From sequence record MT533174.1: a stretch of DNA of 64,000 bases. One strand, given 5' to 3'. Under the pieces are notes generated by a model. The model saw only the letters and a program-made list of their open reading frames with translations, searched no databases and was not told where the DNA came from. This document shows positions 5,095-16,823 of the stretch, piece after piece (within the stretch, counting starts at the first letter, position 1; the number at the start of each line of letters is the position of its first letter). The translations under genes were made by a program, and so were the position numbers. Source of the stretch: Escherichia phage CJ20.

Positions 5095-5248
5095 CTTAGA
5101 GAACACCATCACTGGTCAGCGTACACGCGAGCAGGCTTGCTTTGAGGAATTCCTTGGAGCTGATTTTAAGTTCCAGGAACCAGTTGAACAGTTGTATCAG
5201 GAATATGTTGTACAGATGGAAAATCATGTGTACAACCCAGAGGAATAA
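5084..5248 (+). CDS. small hypothetical protein (54 aa)
   Basis: ATG-initiated ORF filling gap before asiA. Confidence 0.25.
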   Translation: MSHNLENTITGQRTREQACFEEFLGADFKFQEPVEQLYQEYVVQMENHVYNPEE

Positions 5249-5306
5249 TAGTACAATATCCCTACTGAATAATTGAATGTCTTATTGAATACTTGAGTAA
5301 ATTAAA

Positions 5307-5582
5307 ATGACTAAATTTGAAATCGTTTCTGAAATTGTTACTGTAACTTCAATTTTGATTAAAACCGACCGGGAAGATATTACGATGAAGCGTGATGTGT
5401 TTATCGCGTTTTTGAATGAGTTGGGATTGAGGAATGAGAATGGTAATGAGTTAAACAATGTATCGTTTAACAAGTTGTTTAAAAGTTTATCTGAAGATGA
5501 AATTGAACAAATCATTGAACAATTTAACGAAGGATTCGAAGATATACACCGTTATCTTATGATGTATACCTCCGGATTCTAA
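5307..5582 (+). CDS. asiA: anti-sigma70 factor AsiA (91 aa)
   Basis: Strong similarity to recalled T4 AsiA (VTVTSILIK, FIAFLNE, NEGFE, YRYLxMYT). Confidence 0.8.
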   Translation: MTKFEIVSEIVTVTSILIKTDREDITMKRDVFIAFLNELGLRNENGNELNNVSFNKLFKSLSEDEIEQIIEQFNEGFEDIHRYLMMYTSGF

Positions 5583-6232
5583 CGTGTACGCCCGAGCGTA
5601 CGACCTGCTTGTCCACACATAGCAGAAAGCCTATCAAAACTAAGGTCGGGTTTTTGCTTATACCAGTACAACGAGACTGTGCCTGCGTAAACGTTTTCCA
5701 AATTAAAGAATGGGCAGCTGAACATATATTCGAAGCTGCTTTTTTTCTTTGTTGGTAAGAATACAGATTCCGTGCCGGATTCAAAATAATTACCATTAAC
5801 CCCCGCCAAATATTCTGCTGAAGTTTTATCTATTGGAAACCCACCCAAATTTTTTTCATCAACTGATTCAGGCAATATCCCCTCATACCCCACCATATCC
5901 ACAAAGTAGTTAAGGTTAGTTGGTCTAAAGGAATATATCGCCGTGAAGTCAGCTCCGCTTGACGAGTGGACTATCTGGATTTGCTCGATAGCTGCAATTT
6001 TAAATCTGTTATCCTGGTCTTGCCTTATCATTTCTGTGTACGAGGCGTATGAAGCATCCCTGTACGCATCTAAAATTGCATCACCTTTATACCAGATTAC
6101 CGCCATTAAAAATAATAGAACAATAACTAGTACCCGGGAAAAAACAACTTTCCCGGTCGCATTATCTTTAAAAATTCTATCAAGAAGTCCAAAAAGTAGG
6201 TCTGATAATGAAAATCCTACTTTTGGTTCCAT
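5579..6232 (-). CDS. t: holin T (217 aa)
   Basis: Close match to recalled T4 holin T (SDLLFGLLDRIFKDNATGKV, NYFVDMVGYEG, DRLSAMCGQA); one N-terminal TM segment. Confidence 0.85.
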   Translation of the reverse strand: MEPKVGFSLSDLLFGLLDRIFKDNATGKVVFSRVLVIVLLFLMAVIWYKGDAILDAYRDASYASYTEMIRQDQDNRFKIAAIEQIQIVHSSSGADFTAIYSFRPTNLNYFVDMVGYEGILPESVDEKNLGGFPIDKTSAEYLAGVNGNYFESGTESVFLPTKKKSSFEYMFSCPFFNLENVYAGTVSLYWYKQKPDLSFDRLSAMCGQAGRTLGRTR

Positions 6233-6250
6233 ACTTTTCTCCTTTAAAGA

Positions 6251-6258
6251 TATTTATA
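6251..6258 (-). promoter_or_regulatory. late promoter TATAAATA for holin t
   Basis: TATAAATA on minus strand about 19 nt upstream of t start, with AAAGGAG RBS between. Confidence 0.55.
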
Positions 6259-6269
6259 ATACAGAAGTA

Positions 6270-7052
6270 TTACACACGGCTTCCGTGGATGGTTCCTACG
6301 TTCTGCCAAGAAGGAGCATTGCCTGTAACGGCTGCACCGCCGGCCCCACCGCCTGATGTTGAGACTTTCTTGCCCCAACCATTTCCCCCGGCAGCAGCTA
6401 CGTTACCACCATTACCGGCACCCCACTGTCCACCAGCGTTACCACCTGAACCAGCCGCAGTTAGAGACGCGTTACCACCCGGTTGATACCCAACGGAGCC
6501 ACCGAGTCCGAATGGACGGCCGCCACCACCACCACAGGTGGCATTAGTTGGCCATCTATTTTGCAATGATGCAGCGCCGCCGCCACCGCCGCCACCGGCG
6601 ATAGAACCATTATTACGAATACGGAGTTTAGTTCCGGCAGCGTTATGGATTGCTGTACCACCTGCTTGGCCTGCAGAACCATTGGTAGAACCGTTACCTC
6701 CTCGACCATAAACAGTTACACCGCTGTTAATAGTAAGCTGTATATACGCATTAGGTAAGTTGCTAGGGAATTCCAGGCAAGGGTTTCCTCTGCTGTTAGA
6801 TACTAAGTCACCAGTGATTGTAATAACCACTGGCGCACCACCTTGGGCTCTCATCCAGTTAATAAGGGAGTTTCTATCATAATTATGGTTGGCGCCTATA
6901 GATAGATAAATTTCTTTTGATTGTCCTGCCATCGAACCCATCCAACCCGGTACTGCAACTCGCACATCTCGCATTGCCGCATCCATCCAACGTTGTCCCG
7001 TTTCATCTACGGCAGATTGTCCAATCCAACCAGGAACACCTACAATTGCCAT
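6270..7052 (-). CDS. 38: long tail fibre adhesin gp38, T2-type glycine-rich receptor-recognition protein (260 aa)
   Basis: Multiple poly-Gly islands separating short variable segments; located directly downstream of gene 37. Confidence 0.75.
   Translation of the reverse strand: MAIVGVPGWIGQSAVDETGQRWMDAAMRDVRVAVPGWMGSMAGQSKEIYLSIGANHNYDRNSLINWMRAQGGAPVVITITGDLVSNSRGNPCLEFPSNLPNAYIQLTINSGVTVYGRGGNGSTNGSAGQAGGTAIHNAAGTKLRIRNNGSIAGGGGGGGAASLQNRWPTNATCGGGGGRPFGLGGSVGYQPGGNASLTAAGSGGNAGGQWGAGNGGNVAAAGGNGWGKKVSTSGGGAGGAAVTGNAPSWQNVGTIHGSRV
6330..6620. repeat. low-complexity GGN/CCN codon repeats (glycine islands of gp38)
   Basis: Runs of ccgccgccacc-type triplets on plus strand encoding Gly stretches on minus strand. 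Confidence 0.7.
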
Positions 7053-7063
7053 TAAAAATCCTT

Positions 7064-7081
7064 AGAGGGCCGAAGCCCTCT
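7064..7081 (-). promoter_or_regulatory. stem-loop between genes 37 and 38 (AGAGGGC-UUCG-GCCCUCU) just upstream of the gp38 RBS
   Basis: Perfect GC hairpin with UUCG loop in the 31 nt gap between gp37 stop and gp38 start. Confidence 0.5.
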
Positions 7082-7083
7082 TG

Positions 7084-10000
7084 TTAATTAAGTTTTGCTT
7101 CAAGTTCTTTAACTTTAGCCGACAGAGTTTTAACTGCTTCAATTAACAGAGCAACTTGTGCCTGGGTTGAAACGGTAAGAACTTTGTTACCTTTAATGTC
7201 GTCAACTTCACGAATAGCTTCAGGTAATACTTTTTCTAAACTCTGTGCAATAACACCTGCTTCGGTATGAACAACTTCGCCACCAATATAATCAGCTTTA
7301 TCATAGATTAAACCGTCTAGCTGTTCAACCTTATCAAGAGCATTTTCAATCGGTTTGAAGTTAGATTTCAAACGAATATCAGAACGAATATAAACGTTCG
7401 GGGCGTTAATATTCATATCCGAATAAGTATCACCTGACTGGAATCTCATGCGGCGGGCGGCATTAGTAATAATATCAAAAATACCGTCACCGCTCTGTTT
7501 AATACCAGTGTCATTATCACCGATTGCAATCGAGTTGCCACCAAGTGCGTTATTGATGTTAATACCAAATGAATTCATTTGATTAACACCAGATACAGTA
7601 GCGTTATTTAATACAAAGCGGTTAGCCCCGCCTGGAGTTTTTTCAAAGTAAGCAATATAGTTAGTTTCATCGGCAATTTCAATACGGTTACCGCGCGTAC
7701 CATCACCTGCATGAAATATACTCATATGTCTTGGATTAGCACCAGACTTATTAAAGTGAATATAACCATTATCTTTGATAACAATATCATTATAGAATGT
7801 GGCAAAGTCGCGAACAGATATGCCATTATTCATTGATACTTCACCAGTCGACAAGCTAATTGCGAAAGGACGTTTACTGTTCCAATCACCATTGACTGTA
7901 GCTGCGCCATCAGTAGCATTTTTATCTGTAAACAGAATATAAAAACTTCCACCGTCGTTTCGTAACATTGTAGCAACAGAACCAGTTTTATCATAGTTAC
8001 TTCTGATACGAATACCGGTTTGGTTATTAATAGCTATTTCAGAATCAGCTTCATAACGTTTTACTTTACCTGTGTCTACCAGGTTGTTAAGCATGTTAGC
8101 TACTTGGCCTTTAACATGATCAACTGGCAAAGAATCTACTGGGTTTTGAGTAGGACCAAAAGCGCCGATAACTTCTACGGTAGCATTATCAACTGCATGC
8201 CAGGTATAAGCTAATTGGTTGGCATAAGTACCAGATTCAACATAGACATCATATGTATTTCCTGAGGTATTAACTACAGCAATATCAGTAAGACCCGCAG
8301 CTGTTCTGGTATACATCACGGCGTTTAAACCTAATGGGCGGTCATTACCAGTACGAAGAACAATTTCTGTTATAGCACACTGCGTAAACAGTCCAGTATT
8401 AAATCCTTTACCACCAGTTACGGTAAATGAAGCAGTAGAAGTAGATTGTGGCATTGTTACTGTTGCAAACTTATACCATCCAGCAGTTGCACCGTATGTT
8501 ACAAATCCGGAATTGACCTTACGGTTTAATGTGGTATTCAAGTTAACAAAATTACCAGAACCACCTGTAATATTACCAGTTCTATCAAATCTGACTTGGC
8601 CTGCTATTAAATCGCGAGGTGAAATAAAATCACCGTTTTTAATAAATTCCCATCCAAAATCAGCGGTCTGTGGACCTGAAGAACCGTTATCTCCGCCACC
8701 ATGGTAATGAACTCGGAAATTACCATTATTAATTAAAGTCCCCAATGAATAGCAACCGTTACCTTGAACATAACGCTGTTTCAAAATCGGAACATATGTA
8801 CCAGTATCAGCTCTATCAATATTCATATAGAACGGCGCACGGACATTTTCATTATTCTGGGAAGCAAATGAACCCGCACCAGCTGGTCGAACTGCGTCAG
8901 TGCATTCGGCATCAATATACGATGCTTGTCCTATCTGCATACGGAAATTAGGAGAAATGCGACTATTACTAGTAACAACAACAAGTTTGCTATCATTGTC
9001 CACAGTAATCATATTACCGCCAGCTCCATCATCGCCTAACGTAACAGAATGGCGCATTTGTACCATACCATTATTAAGACTAATACTTAGCGGGCGGAGA
9101 TTACTTATTCCACCACTTTCACCAGCGTCTTTAGGAGTTGGAATAATATGCAATGCCGCTTCTGAACGACGGAAAATAGCACCGTATTCAGCGTTCCAAA
9201 TTCTTAATGCATCTGCTGTTCCACCAATTTTTACTTGTCCGGTAATAGAAGAACCACCACGAATAGTAGCCCCATTTTCAAAAGTAACGCCACCGCCAAA
9301 TGTACCTTTACCGGAAGCAGTAATATCACCAAGGCCTATGATATGGCCTGTTTCAACAGTTCCGTTAAACTTAAAGTTGACAGGTCCTATACCTCCGGCA
9401 ACGGCCGGATTTGTACGCTGGGCATAAAAATAATAACCTTGCGAATCTGATACTTCAAATACAGTTTCTCTGTTACCGCCGCCTGCATTAAATGAATTAC
9501 CCCAAGCTTTAAGTGTTACAGTGTTTTTGTTTTGACCGTTACGAAGACCTGCGTCCCAATTGATAGTTTTAGTACCATCAACACCAGAAGGCGCTTTAAA
9601 CGATAAAGCATTAGTATTATCATCACCATTTAAAAACAAGCCCGTACGCATAGAAATACGCTGGGTGGAGTTAATTGTTCCGTCCGCTCTAATAGCAACG
9701 CTATTGGAACCGGTTTTAATATCTAAAATTCCTGGTTCAACAATTAAACCTTCTGCCATACCAACAGCCATACGACCCGTGCCACGGAAATAGTGATACA
9801 TTTTAGAATTGCTGTTATAACCGATATGAGTCTGACCATCACCGTTATTATTACCATCAACCTCGGTACGCGCAGTAAACATTGCTTGGTTGTTATTTGG
9901 GAAATCCCAAGTAGAACCAGAATCTCGACTATAACCAACCATCAATTTTTTAGTACTATTAATACCGTTATTAAGAATAGTTGCAGATGAAATACCATTG

Positions 10001-11016
10001 GCCATTAAATCGATAACGCCGTCACGGACCCATTTAATACCTGTATCGTTATCACCAATGGCAATACCTATAGAAATAGCTGAATCTAATGGATAACGAC
10101 CATTTACGCCACTATCAGGAAGACCTACCGAAATAGATTTACCTGCAGTAATACGCCCACTAGTATCAAACGCCCATTGGAAAGATGAAGGCCCAATACC
10201 AGTCCACCAAGAAATTTCTTGTGGCTTACCTTTGCGACAATCAGCAATTTCATGGAAAATACTTGATGCACTTGATGCGCGTAATTTACGCAAATAGTTT
10301 AAACCGTTAGTAGTATCATCAGAACCATCAGCTGGTGGGTTATAAACCCAGGTCGGTAATGAAACCCAGTCATAGCCGATGTTGGCATTTGCAACAAATG
10401 ATTTTGTACTGAAATTAATATTTTTGGTAACAATTTCAGGTCCAGTGATAATACCGTTGGCCGAGTTAATATTACCCGAAGCCGAAATATTACCTGCGCG
10501 GACCTCAATATTGCCATTATCTACAATAAAACTACCATTACGATTAAAAGTCCAATATTTTGAATCACCCGCTTCATTAATATAATGGAATTTAAAACTG
10601 CCTTCGCTTACTAATGTACCTGCTGAAAAAGTGCCGTCTTTATAACGTTGCTTAATCAAAGGGTGATATTCTGATACTGAGGTAGTTGAACTCAAATCCG
10701 TAAAGATAGGTGCTTTAGTCAGATGTTGGTTTGCCCATGCGCCATTACCGGCGGTCTTAGGTAAAAATTCAATATATTTACCGGCATAAACAAATTGGTT
10801 ACCGTTAAGGTTAAATGTCCCATTTTGAAGAACATCCCCATCAATAGTTCCGCCTTTTGCAAAGCCCAAATCAATAATCTGTCCTTGGTCGGATTTAGTA
10901 AAAATAGTGCGGTCACGCAAGTTAATAGCCAGTTCGCCTTCATCTAACTGAGCTGCAGTAGGCTTGGCTCCTGGTGTTTTACTTCTTTTAAATTGTATCG
11001 ATTTTAAAGTAGCCAT
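7084..11016 (-). CDS. 37: long tail fibre distal subunit gp37 (1310 aa) with C-terminal intramolecular chaperone domain
   Basis: N-terminus and central blocks match recalled T4 gp37; C-terminal SDIRLK motif plus coiled coil. Confidence 0.85.
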   Translation of the reverse strand: MATLKSIQFKRSKTPGAKPTAAQLDEGELAINLRDRTIFTKSDQGQIIDLGFAKGGTIDGDVLQNGTFNLNGNQFVYAGKYIEFLPKTAGNGAWANQHLTKAPIFTDLSSTTSVSEYHPLIKQRYKDGTFSAGTLVSEGSFKFHYINEAGDSKYWTFNRNGSFIVDNGNIEVRAGNISASGNINSANGIITGPEIVTKNINFSTKSFVANANIGYDWVSLPTWVYNPPADGSDDTTNGLNYLRKLRASSASSIFHEIADCRKGKPQEISWWTGIGPSSFQWAFDTSGRITAGKSISVGLPDSGVNGRYPLDSAISIGIAIGDNDTGIKWVRDGVIDLMANGISSATILNNGINSTKKLMVGYSRDSGSTWDFPNNNQAMFTARTEVDGNNNGDGQTHIGYNSNSKMYHYFRGTGRMAVGMAEGLIVEPGILDIKTGSNSVAIRADGTINSTQRISMRTGLFLNGDDNTNALSFKAPSGVDGTKTINWDAGLRNGQNKNTVTLKAWGNSFNAGGGNRETVFEVSDSQGYYFYAQRTNPAVAGGIGPVNFKFNGTVETGHIIGLGDITASGKGTFGGGVTFENGATIRGGSSITGQVKIGGTADALRIWNAEYGAIFRRSEAALHIIPTPKDAGESGGISNLRPLSISLNNGMVQMRHSVTLGDDGAGGNMITVDNDSKLVVVTSNSRISPNFRMQIGQASYIDAECTDAVRPAGAGSFASQNNENVRAPFYMNIDRADTGTYVPILKQRYVQGNGCYSLGTLINNGNFRVHYHGGGDNGSSGPQTADFGWEFIKNGDFISPRDLIAGQVRFDRTGNITGGSGNFVNLNTTLNRKVNSGFVTYGATAGWYKFATVTMPQSTSTASFTVTGGKGFNTGLFTQCAITEIVLRTGNDRPLGLNAVMYTRTAAGLTDIAVVNTSGNTYDVYVESGTYANQLAYTWHAVDNATVEVIGAFGPTQNPVDSLPVDHVKGQVANMLNNLVDTGKVKRYEADSEIAINNQTGIRIRSNYDKTGSVATMLRNDGGSFYILFTDKNATDGAATVNGDWNSKRPFAISLSTGEVSMNNGISVRDFATFYNDIVIKDNGYIHFNKSGANPRHMSIFHAGDGTRGNRIEIADETNYIAYFEKTPGGANRFVLNNATVSGVNQMNSFGININNALGGNSIAIGDNDTGIKQSGDGIFDIITNAARRMRFQSGDTYSDMNINAPNVYIRSDIRLKSNFKPIENALDKVEQLDGLIYDKADYIGGEVVHTEAGVIAQSLEKVLPEAIREVDDIKGNKVLTVSTQAQVALLIEAVKTLSAKVKELEAKLN

Positions 11017-11024
11017 AATGCCTC

Positions 11025-11684
11025 TTAATAATATCCAAAATCTTCAGATGTACCTCTAAGAACAACCTGGTCAATACGAGGAACGTGTTCGTTCAATGTA
11101 CCTGGGTTCCTAGATATGAAATTCGGGGCTGAAAGAACACCAGCCATAGATTGTATGTTACTATTATTTATTTGGACCTGTTTTGCGTTATCCACATCAC
11201 TTAATCCAACTTGTGCTTTTGACGGAGTATTCCCTGGAGAAAACACTCGACCTGATTCGTCTTTAATTTGACGACCAAGGATATCACCCATTACAGTAAG
11301 ACGGTTTGCACCTATAACAGTAGTCGGGTCGAAAATTACAAACGGTGTACCATCCGATGTCTCAAGACCCATACCTTTGCTCATTCTAAATGAGAAAGAA
11401 TATGTAGCAGACATCGGGGAGTTGTTTACTTTACGTCCTAATTTAACCCAATACCCATCAGTGTCTTTAAACTGTAAATCTTTATCAAACCCTACAGTGT
11501 TTAAATATGTCCCACCTGCTGCTTTAGAAACAAAGTCGTTATCTGCTGCTTGCGGTTTATTGAATTCTGTATATACTTTATATGTTTTGTAAAATAAATC
11601 ATTGCTTACGGGCGTCAACGGAAAATTGCCCTGGTGCCATATTACTGACCCGCCAGTCGTTGAGCCTACTCTTAAATCGGCCAT
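11025..11684 (-). CDS. 36: long tail fibre subunit gp36 (219 aa)
   Basis: Size and position between genes 35 and 37 as in T4. Confidence 0.7.
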   Translation of the reverse strand: MADLRVGSTTGGSVIWHQGNFPLTPVSNDLFYKTYKVYTEFNKPQAADNDFVSKAAGGTYLNTVGFDKDLQFKDTDGYWVKLGRKVNNSPMSATYSFSFRMSKGMGLETSDGTPFVIFDPTTVIGANRLTVMGDILGRQIKDESGRVFSPGNTPSKAQVGLSDVDNAKQVQINNSNIQSMAGVLSAPNFISRNPGTLNEHVPRIDQVVLRGTSEDFGYY

Positions 11685-11709: not shown

Positions 11710-11717
11710 TATTTATA
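11710..11717 (-). promoter_or_regulatory. late promoter TATAAATA upstream of gene 36
   Basis: TATAAATA on minus strand about 26 nt upstream of gene 36 ATG. Confidence 0.55.
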
Positions 11718-11720
11718 ACG

Positions 11721-11745
11721 AAAAAAGGACCCGAAGGTCCTTATT
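11721..11745 (-). terminator. rho-independent terminator after gene 35 (GGACC-UUCG-GGUCC + U6)
   Basis: GC hairpin followed by U-run on minus-strand transcript, between gene 35 stop and gene 36 late promoter. Confidence 0.55.
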
Positions 11746-12877
11746 GTTTTTCTCTGAATTCCGCGGCAAATACGAATCCAGCTTGACTGGACCTTGTTGC
11801 ATTTTTATCATTCAATTGTGCAATGACATTACCCATATTACCTGGTTCTCCAGCCACAACCATTCTTATGCCGTTAATACCGATTTCTGCGGATTTAGCC
11901 TGTGTTTCTTGTCGAGCGATTTCTGTAAAGAAAATATTCCTTACTCCACCTTGTCCAGCAGCAACGGTCTTCCTTGCATACAATGTAAATCCATCAGCAT
12001 TCGGTGGAACAACAACATAACGTTCAAACGTCATCCATGCACCAGCCGGTGGACTTGCTTGACCTGTAGATGGGATATCATAATCGTTTGACTGAATCAT
12101 CGTCTGACCATTAAAGAATCGAACAGACATCTGAGTTGTTCCAAGGTCTTTAAGCGCCTGGTCATATGTCAGCTGAAACTTCAGGTAAAAAGTATCACCA
12201 GGGGCCATATTATAATCGGCCGCAGGAGTGATGGGAGAGTCTGTGGGGAAGCGTTTTATTTCTTGTGTACTATTACTATAATATGTGTTTCCGTCTTCCA
12301 CGACGCGCAGAGGGAATCCTGTGCCACCCACATCAGCAAAGTCGTCGTACACCATTTCCAATGGAGTCAATACATCTTCAACAGTTTTCCCGTCATTATA
12401 CAACACATGCTCTTTAACGATTGCATTTCGACCAGAGATATAAAAAGCCGAATACGAAGTATCAACTTGGTCAATCAACCACTTATCCGGAAATGCAGTC
12501 GAGCCGCGTGTTCTGAACCAATCAATTAAAGTTTGGGAAGCATTCAATTTCCCCTGCGATATCAAACAAACAATCCTACCCGCTGGAATGGAATTAATAT
12601 AAGTCACAAAGGCCTGTGAAATGACATCATAGTCTTTTGTGAAACCATAGTTTTTGGTTGCAGTGATTGTATTTGTTACTGGGTCAATCTCAATAAGGTT
12701 TAATCCATTTTGGAAGTTCTGAGGCCCGAAGGCCTCATCTTGAAACTTAACGTAGGGATAGTTTGGCGATTTGGTACAAGTCCCAGCAATCGACAATTTA
12801 TATCTTACTGCGTTATTTTCAGAAAGCACGGGAACTTGGACATATCCCTGTCCAAATTCAGCCATAAATCTTTCCAT
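11741..12877 (-). CDS. 35: long tail fibre hinge protein gp35 (378 aa)
   Basis: Size and position between genes 34 and 36 as in T4. Confidence 0.7.
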   Translation of the reverse strand: MERFMAEFGQGYVQVPVLSENNAVRYKLSIAGTCTKSPNYPYVKFQDEAFGPQNFQNGLNLIEIDPVTNTITATKNYGFTKDYDVISQAFVTYINSIPAGRIVCLISQGKLNASQTLIDWFRTRGSTAFPDKWLIDQVDTSYSAFYISGRNAIVKEHVLYNDGKTVEDVLTPLEMVYDDFADVGGTGFPLRVVEDGNTYYSNSTQEIKRFPTDSPITPAADYNMAPGDTFYLKFQLTYDQALKDLGTTQMSVRFFNGQTMIQSNDYDIPSTGQASPPAGAWMTFERYVVVPPNADGFTLYARKTVAAGQGGVRNIFFTEIARQETQAKSAEIGINGIRMVVAGEPGNMGNVIAQLNDKNATRSSQAGFVFAAEFREKQ

Positions 12878-16815: not shown

Positions 16816-16823
16816 TATTTATA
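16816..16823 (-). promoter_or_regulatory. late promoter TATAAATA upstream of gene 34
   Basis: TATAAATA on minus strand about 31 nt upstream of gene 34 ATG. Confidence 0.6.

What the first reader, a model, noticed from the sequence alone, without database searches (positions are those of the whole stretch)
6270..7052. T2-type glycine-island adhesin gp38 as the host-range determinant
The 260 aa gp38 has several poly-Gly islands (for example GGGGGGGAAS, CGGGGGRPFGLGG) separating short variable segments. The coding DNA is a GGN/CCN repeat tract (about 6330-6620) that would favour slippage and recombination. Its length and layout resemble the T2/K3/Ox2 adhesin type, not the smaller T4 gp38 chaperone.
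Basis: partly seen in the sequence, partly recalled or inferred. Interest (0 to 1): 0.5.

Follow-up and report, generated by a model that had tools for sequence, protein, structure and literature searches.

The report
T2-type gp38 tail-fibre adhesin gene
This is the ordinary receptor-binding tip protein (gp38 adhesin) of a T2-like coliphage's long tail fibre; the gene is already annotated in GenBank, and its only notable feature is an uncharacterised set of receptor-contact loops that appears to have arrived by recombination.

Summary
The ORF is real: minus strand, 6270-7052, 260 aa. It is a T2-type gp38 adhesin. It matches Pfam GP38 (2e-82) and Gp38_N. It is 84% identical to T2 gp38 and shows no similarity to the T4 gp38 chaperone. 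An AlphaFold model (pLDDT 91) superposes on the crystal structures of PP01 and S16 gp38.

It lies between a T2-type gp37, which carries a self-cleaving S74 chaperone domain, and holin t. The phage is VR20-like (Gaprivervirus). The exact protein is in GenBank as "long tail fiber adhesin [Escherichia phage CJ20]".

The glycine tract is real. 38 of 97 codons are GGN, and it is the GC maximum of the 64 kb window. It encodes the polyglycine-II sandwich that displays the receptor loops. It is not a true DNA repeat, and slippage is not supported.

Recombination is supported. The gene is a mosaic, and only the specificity region (about 6254-6553) falls to 63-68% identity with VR20, inside flanks that are 94-100% identical. 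Loops C and D differ from T2 (FadL/OmpF), so the receptor cannot be assigned.

The parts
6270..7052 (-). gene 38: T2-type long-tail-fibre adhesin, 260 aa plus TAA stop
   Evidence: ORF listed. Pfam GP38 and Gp38_N. Exact match to QMP18670.1 (phage CJ20).
6915..7052 (-). N-terminal attachment domain (residues 1-46): three short helices, each preceded by a Trp (W9, W22, W37)
   Evidence: Gp38_N matches residues 1-42. The model has helices at 10-18, 23-29 and 38-41. The three Trp align with those of S16 gp38 and are invariant in A1. DNA of codons 1-40 is 95.8% identical to VR20.
6708..6914 (-). First part of the central beta-helix (residues 47-115)
   Evidence: Strands in the AF2 model. Fold match to 9V85 and 6F45.
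6657..6707 (-). First polyglycine insert (residues 116-132: GRGGNG-STNGSA-GQAGG), containing loop A (122-127, window 6672-6689)
   Evidence: Aligned to PP01 loop-A W119-I124 (loop definitions from PMC12892980). Loop sequences compared.
6597..6656 (-). Beta-helix rungs (residues 133-152)
   Evidence: Model strands at 135-137, 143-147 and 150-152.
6333..6596 (-). Specificity region (residues 153-240): glycine-rich motifs (Gly7 at 153-159, CGGGGGRPFG at 173-182, and others) alternating with variable loops. Loop B is residues 163-172 (window 6537-6566), C is 186-190 (6483-6497), D is 205-210 (6423-6440), E is 225-231 (6360-6380).
   Evidence: DSSP assigns almost no helix or strand here, as expected for polyglycine-II helices. 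68-70% aa identity to the T2 group against 93% to Logan contig L009. dS is about 1.1 against T2/VR20.
6273..6332 (-). Conserved C-terminal segment (residues 241-260, AVTGNAPSWQNVGTIHGSRV) that returns to the beta-helix
   Evidence: Strands at 242-244, 248-251 and 254-256. Near-identical DNA to AnYang and IME341.
7053..7083 (-). g37-g38 spacer: 7-bp hairpin with a UUCG loop (7064-7081), then AAGGA Shine-Dalgarno (7059-7063) 6 nt before the ATG
   Evidence: The hairpin is conserved with compensatory changes in T2, VR20, AnYang, fDHCT2 and T4.
7084..11016 (-). gene 37: distal long-tail-fibre subunit, 1310 aa, the partner that carries gp38
   Evidence: The last 60 residues of the predicted mature protein (window 7384-7563) are 93% identical to VR20, 65% to T2 and 15% to Ox2.
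7087..7383 (-). gp37 C-terminal intramolecular chaperone (Peptidase_S74, residues 1212-1310). Self-cleavage is predicted before S1212 (YIR|SDIRLK).
   Evidence: Pfam PF13884 7.5e-15 at residues 1212-1268. Motif position. 100% identical to VR20. The cleavage itself is inferred from family knowledge.
11710..11717 (-). TATAAATA (T4 late-promoter consensus) upstream of g36. This is the nearest such site upstream of g38, so it is the likely promoter of a g36-g37-g38 late transcript.
   Evidence: 15 sites in the window against 4.5 expected, and none between 7053 and 11709 on the minus strand. Its function is inferred.
5579..6232 (-). Holin t, the downstream neighbour, with its own TATAAATA at 6251-6258
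   Evidence: Pfam Phage_holin_T 3e-67..

Best explanation
Gene 38 encodes the monomeric receptor-binding adhesin that caps the long tail fibre of a T2-type (Gaprivervirus, VR20-like) coliphage.

Proposed mechanism:
1. gp37 trimerises with the help of its own C-terminal S74 chaperone domain, which then cuts itself off before S1212 (inferred).
2. The three-helix N-terminal domain of gp38 plugs its three tryptophans (W9, W22, W37) into the threefold tip of gp37 (inferred from S16).
3. The glycine-rich motifs fold into a three-layer polyglycine-II sandwich on top of a small beta-helix. This is shown at the level of a confident model that matches the two crystal structures.
4. Five short loops (A-E) at the far end of the sandwich contact the extracellular loops of an E. 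coli outer-membrane beta-barrel protein. This gives the reversible first step of adsorption and sets host range (inferred from family knowledge).

The GGN-rich DNA is therefore simply the coding image of the scaffold.

This allele has T2-like loops A, B and E, but loops C and D are replaced: SVGYQ instead of KIGSDSILS, and NAGGQW instead of TT-FQY. The specificity region has a different ancestry from the rest of the gene. That points to acquisition by homologous recombination between related phages.

The receptor is most likely a porin-type protein present in both K-12 and B strains. FadL and/or OmpF, as for T2, is the single best guess (about 35-40%), but it cannot be transferred with confidence.
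For: Family and fold:
- Pfam GP38 2e-82 and Gp38_N; PHROG 2056.
- PDB sequence hits 9V85 (1.7e-47) and 6F45_D (1.4e-45).
- AF2 model with mean pLDDT 91.2. Foldseek gives 9V85 at E 5e-23, TM 0.93 and rmsd 1.4 A over 217 columns, and 6F45_D at TM 0.83/0.87.
- Identity 84% to T2 and 86% to VR20.

Context:
- The order g35-g36-g37-g38-t, with asiA on the opposite strand, is the same as in T2, VR20 and T4.
- The gp37 tip and the gp38 N-domain are both of the T2 subtype. This matches the lock-and-key pairing described in PMC3157838.

Selection:
- dN/dS is 0.05-0.2 in the gp38 frame.

Recombination:
- Best-donor segmentation gives VR20 (codons 1-40, 95.8%), T2 (41-88, 95.8%) and Logan L009 (88-260, 90.3%). 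The cost is 70 against 91.9 +/- 0.5 in 200 column shuffles, minimum 88.
- Identity to VR20 is 94-100% in 6954-7553 and 5154-6253, but 63-68% in 6254-6553.
- dS against Logan is 0.73 in codons 1-152 and 0.29 in 153-240. The reverse holds against T2/VR20: about 0.5 and then about 1.1.

Loops as determinants:
- The loop-region positions that vary among the six near-identical cluster members (161, 166, 171, 188, 190, 207, 210, 229, 231, 232) lie in or next to loops B-E; further differences at 219, 224, 234 and 238 lie in the neighbouring glycine-rich segments.
- T2 D190G, in loop C, escapes a receptor blocker (PMC12529663).
- A single HVS3 change switches OmpF to OmpW (bioRxiv 10.64898/2026.04.02.716166).
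- PP01 loops D and E cross-link to OmpC (PMC12892980).

Identity of the phage:
- The exact protein is QMP18670.1 of phage CJ20.
- CJ20 plaques on DH5alpha, BL21 and three of seven FC-series E. coli test strains (PMC7492175).
Against: There is no adsorption or virion-composition data for this protein. The receptor is unassigned, because the nearest characterised adhesin (T2) is only 68% identical in the specificity region and differs in loop length. The structure is a prediction, and loop B has low confidence (mean pLDDT 64 for residues 161-170). The mosaic breakpoints at codons ~40 and ~88 lie in the N-terminal half rather than in glycine motifs, so the specific idea that glycine motifs are the crossover sites is only weakly supported. 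Only the right-hand boundary, near codons 238-240, sits in one. That the window is CJ20 rests on one identical protein; the CJ20 genome could not be fetched.
Confidence: 0.93

Rival explanations
1. It is a T4-type gp38: a non-structural chaperone that helps gp37 fold and is absent from the virion, so that gp37 itself binds the receptor.
For: It has the same gene name and the same position between g37 and t as in T4.
Against: There is no sequence similarity to T4 gp38 (BLASTP E=45). The length is 260 aa against 183 aa. There are strong matches to the adhesin family and to its crystal structures. gp37 here ends in an S74 self-chaperone and a T2-type tip, and shares only 8-13% identity with the T4 gp37 C-terminus.
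Confidence: 0.01
2. The GGN tract is a contingency locus. Slipped-strand mispairing in the glycine codon runs frequently adds or removes glycines and so switches host range.
For: There is a perfect 9-nt tandem, (GGTGGCGGC)x2.3, in the Gly7 run. The longest Gly run ranges from 4 to 9 across 121 homologues. Another annotator flagged the same small repeat in phage TB34 (H178).
Against: Only 21 nt are tandem. The other runs use mixed codons. Gly7 and Gly5 have constant length in all 14 sequences of A1 and in the six close cluster members. Where T6 and M1 have longer runs, the alignment shows A-to-G substitutions without gaps. The glycine motifs are the buried scaffold, and deleting them abolishes function in T6 (PMC3157838). 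Host-range variation maps to the loops, not to run lengths.
Confidence: 0.03
3. The adhesin has exactly T2's specificity (FadL plus OmpF), and the loop differences are neutral.
For: It belongs to the T2 subtype overall at 84% identity. Loops A, B and E are close to those of T2. If the phage is CJ20, it grows on both K-12 and B strains, which carry both receptors (PMC7492175; my own knowledge for receptor presence).
Against: Loop C is three residues shorter and unrelated in sequence, and it spans T2 D190, a known functional site (PMC12529663). Loop D is replaced and one residue longer. dS of about 1.1 shows an old, separate allele lineage. In this family, one or two loop substitutions are enough to change the receptor: T2 versus SV76 (PMC3157838), and RB51 versus RB68 (bioRxiv 2026.04.02.716166).
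Confidence: 0.35
4. The open frame is a by-product of GC-rich low-complexity DNA, or the real gene is one of the overlapping plus-strand ORFs (6208-6486, 6356-6547, 6538-6711).
For: Several Pro/Ala-rich ORFs of 57-92 aa lie antisense to the tract.
Against: Those ORFs are simply CCN read from the complement of GGN. Their lengths are not conserved among relatives: the longest stop-free stretch per frame varies from 35 to 140 aa. Substitutions are overwhelmingly synonymous in the minus-strand frame (dN/dS 0.05-0.2). The minus-strand product has hundreds of homologues and two solved structures.
Confidence: 0.01

Closest known systems
Phage T2 gp38 (receptors FadL and OmpF)
   Same: 84% aa identity over the full length. 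Same subtype of N-terminal attachment domain (87%) and of gp37 tip (65%). Same gene order. Same glycine motifs. Loops A, B and E are similar.
   Different: The specificity region is only 68% identical, with dS of about 1.1. Loop C is SVGYQ instead of KIGSDSILS, so it is 3 residues shorter and lacks T2 D190. Loop D is NAGGQW instead of TT-FQY. The segment after loop E is TSGGGAGG instead of TSEGGAAG. The receptor is therefore not transferable.
gp38 of Gaprivervirus VR20 and of the Dhakavirus phages AnYang, IME341 and IME08, plus the unclassified phage fDHCT2
   Same: VR20 is the nearest genome backbone: 93.5% identity over 20 kb. Its gp37 chaperone domain is identical, and its gp38 codons 1-40 are 95.8% identical. 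All of these phages carry T2-type adhesins.
   Different: They all carry the T2-like loop set (IGSDAILSG, TTVQY). Across 6254-6553 they are only 63-71% identical in DNA to the window.
Salmonella phage S16 gp38 (PDB 6F45; OmpC)
   Same: Same three-domain architecture. The sequence E-value is 1.4e-45 over residues 8-258 and the model TM-score is 0.83/0.87. The three tryptophans are conserved. The polyglycine-II sandwich of glycine-rich motifs is as described for S16 in PMC6851490.
   Different: 45% identity. All distal loops differ. The host and receptor are different.
Phage PP01 gp38 receptor-binding domain (PDB 9V85; OmpC of E. coli O157)
   Same: Best structural match: TM 0.93 normalised by target length, rmsd 1.4 A. 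The PGGNASLT motif and a short loop C are shared.
   Different: 49% identity. Loops B, D and E are unrelated, including the loop E residue (Tyr230) that contacts OmpC in PP01 (PMC12892980).
Ox2 and M1 gp38 (OmpA) and T6 gp38 (Tsx)
   Same: Same family and layout; 48-53% identity.
   Different: They have a different N-domain subtype (61%) and a different gp37 tip (15% for Ox2). All their loops are unrelated to the window's. K3 itself could not be retrieved.
T4 gp38 (tail-fibre assembly chaperone)
   Same: Only the gene name and the position between g37 and t.
   Different: The sequence is unrelated (E=45), the protein is 183 aa, and it matches no Pfam GP38 model. Per the literature it is not a virion protein.
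Uncharacterised alleles: the Krischvirus-type P0007 group and Dhakavirus UP19
   Same: Same lengths and similar sequences for loops C and D (STSYR or ATSYR; DAGGQF). 65-70% identity in the specificity region.
   Different: Different N-terminal domain (46-59%). No receptor is known. The middle of P0007's gene is absent from GenBank Krischvirus phages at megablast level.

Membership tests
T2-type gp38 adhesin (Pfam PF05268 GP38 plus PF21721 Gp38_N) | Sequence match to both family models above the curated cut-offs | tested here: met
   GP38 scores 276.7 bits (cut-off 25) over residues 47-260, covering the full model. Gp38_N scores 61.5 bits (cut-off 25) over residues 1-42.
T2-type gp38 adhesin | Three-domain fold: N-terminal helical attachment domain, small beta-helix, and polyglycine-II sandwich | tested here: met
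   The AF2 model has pLDDT 91.2. Foldseek matches 9V85 at TM 0.93 and rmsd 1.4 A, and 6F45_D at TM 0.83/0.87. This rests on a predicted structure, not a solved one.
T2-type gp38 adhesin | Conserved glycine-rich motifs alternating with hypervariable segments in the C-terminal half | tested here: met
   Invariant or >=90% conserved Gly columns occur at 116-121, 128-132, 153-159, 175-185, 201, 213-216, 222 and 236-239. The columns between them are variable.
T2-type gp38 adhesin | Three tryptophans at the apices of the N-terminal helices, which dock into gp37 | tested here: met
   W9, W22 and W37 each precede a model helix. They align with the S16 tryptophans and are invariant in A1. The docking itself was not tested.
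T2-type gp38 adhesin | Encoded directly downstream of g37, whose tip is of the matching subtype and which ends in a removable S74 chaperone | tested here: met
   The gene order is g37-g38-t. Peptidase_S74 matches gp37 residues 1212-1268. The tip is 65% identical to T2 and 15% to Ox2, while the gp38 N-domain is 87% identical to T2 and 61% to Ox2.
T2-type gp38 adhesin | Present as a single copy at the fibre tip of the virion | not testable with these tools
   This needs virion proteomics, immuno-EM or cryo-EM.
T2-type gp38 adhesin | Binds a specific outer-membrane protein and thereby sets host range | not testable with these tools
   The evidence is indirect only: the specificity region is the strongly diverged patch against VR20 in g38 and downstream of it, and variation among close alleles concentrates in or next to the loops.
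T4-type gp38 chaperone | Sequence similarity to T4 gp38 (183 aa) | tested here: not met
   BLASTP gives E=45, 18% identity over 40 residues.
Simple-sequence contingency locus (slippage-driven phase or antigenic variation) | A long, perfect tandem repeat whose copy number varies among close relatives | tested here: not met
   The longest tandem array is 21-23 nt. The Gly7 and Gly5 run lengths are invariant among the 14 sequences of A1 and the six cluster members.

The most novel reading that the evidence does not exclude
The CJ20-type loop set has T2-like loops A, B and E combined with replaced loops C and D. So far it is seen only in this phage and five metagenomic sequences. It may direct the fibre to an outer-membrane protein other than FadL/OmpF, possibly one not yet recorded as a T-even receptor. 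The private R166 in loop B may be a further host-range adaptation.
Probability: 0.15. Interest if true: 0.4.

Novelty: already known. Interest (0 to 1): 0.15.

Why it matters
The finding matters little for biology in general, because it confirms a textbook module. The practical value is modest. This allele is a natural example of a specificity-region swap on a nearly unchanged VR20-like backbone. It adds an uncharacterised loop combination to the gp38 catalogue that receptor-prediction models are being trained on. Determining its receptor would test whether loops C and D alone can retarget a T2-subtype adhesin.

Tried and rejected
- tblastn with the whole protein covered only residues 1-173, because the low-complexity filter masks the glycine region. 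I therefore compared the specificity region by explicit alignment instead.
- I looked for a characterised phage carrying the same loops. A 'distant' blastn of 6333-6620 found nothing above 75% identity. The closest loop-C/D relatives (P0007, UP19) are themselves uncharacterised, and the middle of P0007's gene is absent from GenBank Krischvirus phages.
- A literature search for Gaprivervirus or Dhakavirus gp38 receptors gave only LHE83 (OmpA) and Bp7 (LamB/OmpC), which carry different alleles.
- The CJ20 genome (MT533174) is not in the local collections. The exact-protein contig look-up also returned nothing.
- K3 gp38 was not retrieved: guessed neighbouring accessions failed. Ox2 was retrieved.
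- The Rfam scan of 5400-7400 found nothing near a gathering score.
- I considered the antisense ORFs and rejected them.
- I considered the slippage hypothesis and rejected it.

Full report
**Observation**

The window has an ATG-to-TAA ORF of 260 aa at 6270-7052 on the minus strand.
- Glycine makes up 24% of the protein and 36% of residues 116-245.
- In 6330-6620, 37 of 97 in-frame codons are GGN.
- Scanning all six frames of the 64 kb window, the richest 97-codon stretch is 6321-6611 on the minus strand, with 38 GGN. The mean for that frame is 3.8, sd 3.3.
- The same place is the GC maximum of the window: 62% in 6310-6600 against 41% overall.

The tract is therefore real and far beyond chance. 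It is a codon-composition feature and not a repeat array. Tandem Repeats Finder reports only a 21-23 nt array in the Gly7 run, encoded GGT GGC GGC GGT GGC GGC GGC, and a 20-nt array at 6929-6948. The dispersed direct repeats are 13-21 nt long at 76-86% identity.

**What it is**

The product matches Pfam GP38 (2e-82, full model) and Gp38_N (7.6e-17). It also matches PHROG 2056, 'tail fiber protein; host specificity' (6e-97).

By sequence it matches the two solved gp38 adhesins: PP01 (9V85, 1.7e-47) and S16 (6F45 chain D, 1.4e-45, residues 8-258).

An AlphaFold2 model built on 120 homologues has mean pLDDT 91.2. Foldseek places it on 9V85 (E 5e-23, TM 0.93 by target length, rmsd 1.4 A over 217 columns) and on 6F45_D (TM 0.83/0.87). 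Nothing else scores below E=1.

The model shows three short N-terminal helices, each preceded by a tryptophan (W9, W22, W37). These align with the S16 residues that dock into gp37 (PMC6851490). The model then has beta-helix strands, and a region at residues 153-240 that is almost free of helix and strand, as expected for polyglycine-II helices.

Identity is 84% to T2 gp38, 86% to VR20, 88% to fDHCT2, 51% to M1 and 48% to T6 (alignment A1), and 48% to Ox2 (pairwise). BLASTP against T4 gp38 gives E=45.

**Context**

On the minus strand the order is:
- g35 (11741-12877)
- g36 (11025-11684)
- g37 (7084-11016, 1310 aa)
- g38
- holin t (5579-6232)

An AsiA-like ORF lies on the plus strand (5307-5582), by synteny with the asiA gene annotated just beyond t in T2, VR20 and AnYang. 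This arrangement matches T2, VR20, AnYang and T4.

gp37 ends in a Peptidase_S74 intramolecular chaperone (residues 1212-1268, 7.5e-15). The motif YIR|SDIRLK predicts self-cleavage before S1212. The cleavage itself is inferred from what is known of S74 domains.

The 60 residues before that point are 93% identical to VR20, 65% to T2 and 15% to Ox2. The gp38 N-domain is 100% identical to VR20, 87% to T2 and 61% to Ox2. This matched pairing of tip and attachment subtypes is what Trojet et al. describe (PMC3157838).

A 7-bp hairpin with a UUCG loop and an AAGGA ribosome-binding site fill the g37-g38 spacer. The nearest TATAAATA late-promoter consensus upstream of g38 is at 11710-11717, before g36. 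g38 is therefore probably part of a g36-g37-g38 late transcript (inferred).

The first 20 kb of the window is 93.5% identical to Gaprivervirus VR20.

The exact gp38 protein is in GenBank as QMP18670.1, 'long tail fiber adhesin [Escherichia phage CJ20]', from a 169,884-bp genome. CJ20 (MT533174) was reported to plaque on three of seven FC-series E. coli test strains, on DH5alpha and on BL21 (PMC7492175). The genome itself could not be fetched here.

**The specificity region and its history**

I mapped the PP01 loop definitions (PMC12892980) through the alignment. The loops in this protein are:

| Loop | Residues | Sequence |
|---|---|---|
| A | 122-127 | STNGSA |
| B | 163-172 | LQNRWPTNAT |
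| C | 186-190 | SVGYQ |
| D | 205-210 | NAGGQW |
| E | 225-231 | GWGKKVS |

Compared with T2:
- Loops A and B are similar: STNSSA and LKNSYPTNGS.
- Loop E is similar: GWGKNVY.
- Loop C is replaced and three residues shorter. T2 has KIGSDSILS, which includes D190, the site of the T2 escape mutation in PMC12529663.
- Loop D is replaced and one residue longer. T2 has TT-FQY.

The only close relatives of this loop set are five metagenomic proteins in the same 90% cluster. The next nearest are uncharacterised alleles of a Krischvirus-type adhesin (P0007, 70%) and of Dhakavirus UP19 (65%).

Among the six cluster members, the loop-region differences are at positions 161, 166, 171, 188, 190, 207, 210, 229, 231 and 232, in or next to loops B-E. 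Further differences at 219, 224, 234 and 238 lie in the adjacent glycine-rich segments. R166 is private to the window.

**Recombination versus slippage**

A codon-based DNA comparison with nine relatives shows a mosaic:
- Codons 1-40 are closest to VR20 (95.8%).
- Codons 41-88 are closest to T2 (95.8%).
- Codons 88-260 are closest to the Logan contig L009 (90.3%).

The best-donor segmentation costs 70, against 91.9 +/- 0.5 (minimum 88) in 200 column shuffles.

Against the VR20 backbone, identity is 94-100% across the end of g37 and the first 100 bases of g38. It falls to 82-91% in 6554-6953 and to 63-68% in 6254-6553. It returns to 94-100% from 6253 down through t and the asiA region to about 5154.

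Synonymous divergence tells the same story. Against T2/VR20, dS is about 0.5 in codons 1-152 and about 1.1 in codons 153-240. Against the Logan contig the values are reversed, 0.73 and 0.29.

The specificity region therefore has a separate, old ancestry and was brought in by recombination. This is the cassette-exchange behaviour long proposed for this family (PMC3157838) and reproduced experimentally from HVS2 onwards (bioRxiv 10.64898/2026.04.02.716166).

The right-hand boundary, near codons 238-240, lies in a glycine motif. The other breakpoints do not. The claim that glycine motifs are the crossover sites is thus only weakly supported here.

Slippage is not supported. The tandem array is 21 nt long. 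Gly-run lengths are constant in the T2 group and in the close cluster. Longer runs in distant adhesins align as substitutions rather than indels.

dN/dS of 0.05-0.2 in the gp38 frame also dismisses the antisense Pro/Ala-rich ORFs.

**Mechanism**

Most of the mechanism is inferred from the family.
1. After gp37 trimerises and its S74 domain is removed, one gp38 caps the fibre through its three-tryptophan N-domain.
2. The glycine motifs form the rigid sandwich.
3. Loops A-E bind extracellular loops of an outer-membrane beta-barrel, giving reversible adsorption. The rest of adsorption follows the T-even pathway.

Shown here: family membership, predicted fold, genomic partner and mosaic ancestry. 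Not shown: virion location, receptor identity, and the effect on host range.

Receptor: T2's FadL/OmpF is the best single guess, at about 35-40%. Loops C and D are different, and single loop substitutions can retarget these adhesins. Examples are T2 versus SV76 (PMC3157838) and RB51 versus RB68 (the 2026 bioRxiv preprint). If the phage is CJ20, growth on BL21 argues against exclusive use of OmpC. That rests on my own knowledge that E. coli B strains lack OmpC.

**Verdict**

The feature is a well-understood module and is already correctly annotated in GenBank. Its one open point is the receptor of this uncharacterised loop combination. Interest is low.

Noticed in passing
window 7064-7081 (- strand): The g37-g38 spacer holds a 7-bp hairpin with a UUCG tetraloop (AGAGGGC-UUCG-GCCCUCU; -15.6 kcal/mol for the 61-nt context, z = -2.2). 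An equivalent hairpin, with compensatory stem changes, sits at the same place in T2, VR20, AnYang, fDHCT2, the Logan contig and T4. It looks like the classic T4 intercistronic C(UUCG)G hairpin; its role here was not tested.
   Followed up: partly
window 6251-6258, 11710-11717, 16816-16823 and 12 other sites: The T4 late-promoter consensus TATAAATA occurs 15 times, against 4.5 +/- 2.0 expected. One site lies just upstream of holin t and one just upstream of g36. None lies directly before g38.
   Followed up: partly
window 7554-8553 (g37 distal shaft, - strand): gp37 is itself a mosaic. This part is only 47-74% identical to the VR20 backbone, with AnYang-like patches (79-87% in 7854-8053 and 80% in 7654-7753). 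The last ~500 nt return to 91-100% identity with VR20. The fibre shaft has therefore also been exchanged, separately from the gp38 cassette.
   Followed up: partly
window 6555-6557 (codon 166 of g38): R166 in loop B is private to the window. The other five members of the 90% cluster and all T2-group adhesins examined have Ser or Asn at this position, and one cluster member (P0122) differs from the window at this residue only. It may be a host-range adaptation or a laboratory mutation.
   Followed up: no
window 6937-6953 and 7021-7037: A 17-nt direct repeat (82% identity) encodes the twice-occurring VPGW(M/I)G motif of the N-terminal attachment domain. This reflects the pseudo-threefold design that matches the trimeric gp37 tip.
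   Followed up: no
window 11741-12877 (g35, - strand): The gp35 hinge protein matches the Pfam ILEI domain (interleukin-like EMT inducer, 2e-9, residues 57-128). The gp35 on Logan contig L009 has the same hit on record.
   Followed up: no
window 6543-6662 (+ strand): There is a weak Rfam match to the E. coli sRNA C0719 (23 bits against a gathering score of 50, E=0.0045), antisense to the glycine tract. It is almost certainly a compositional artefact.
   Followed up: no
locus L014 (GCA_023098545.1 contig JALMHA010000052.1), 1501-2277: A Krischvirus-type gp38 (P0007) sits in a contig of an assembly labelled E. coli. The middle of the gene (its HVS region) has no megablast match in any GenBank Krischvirus phage. 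Its loops C and D resemble those of the window. This is another uncharacterised specificity allele, shared across genera.
   Followed up: partly
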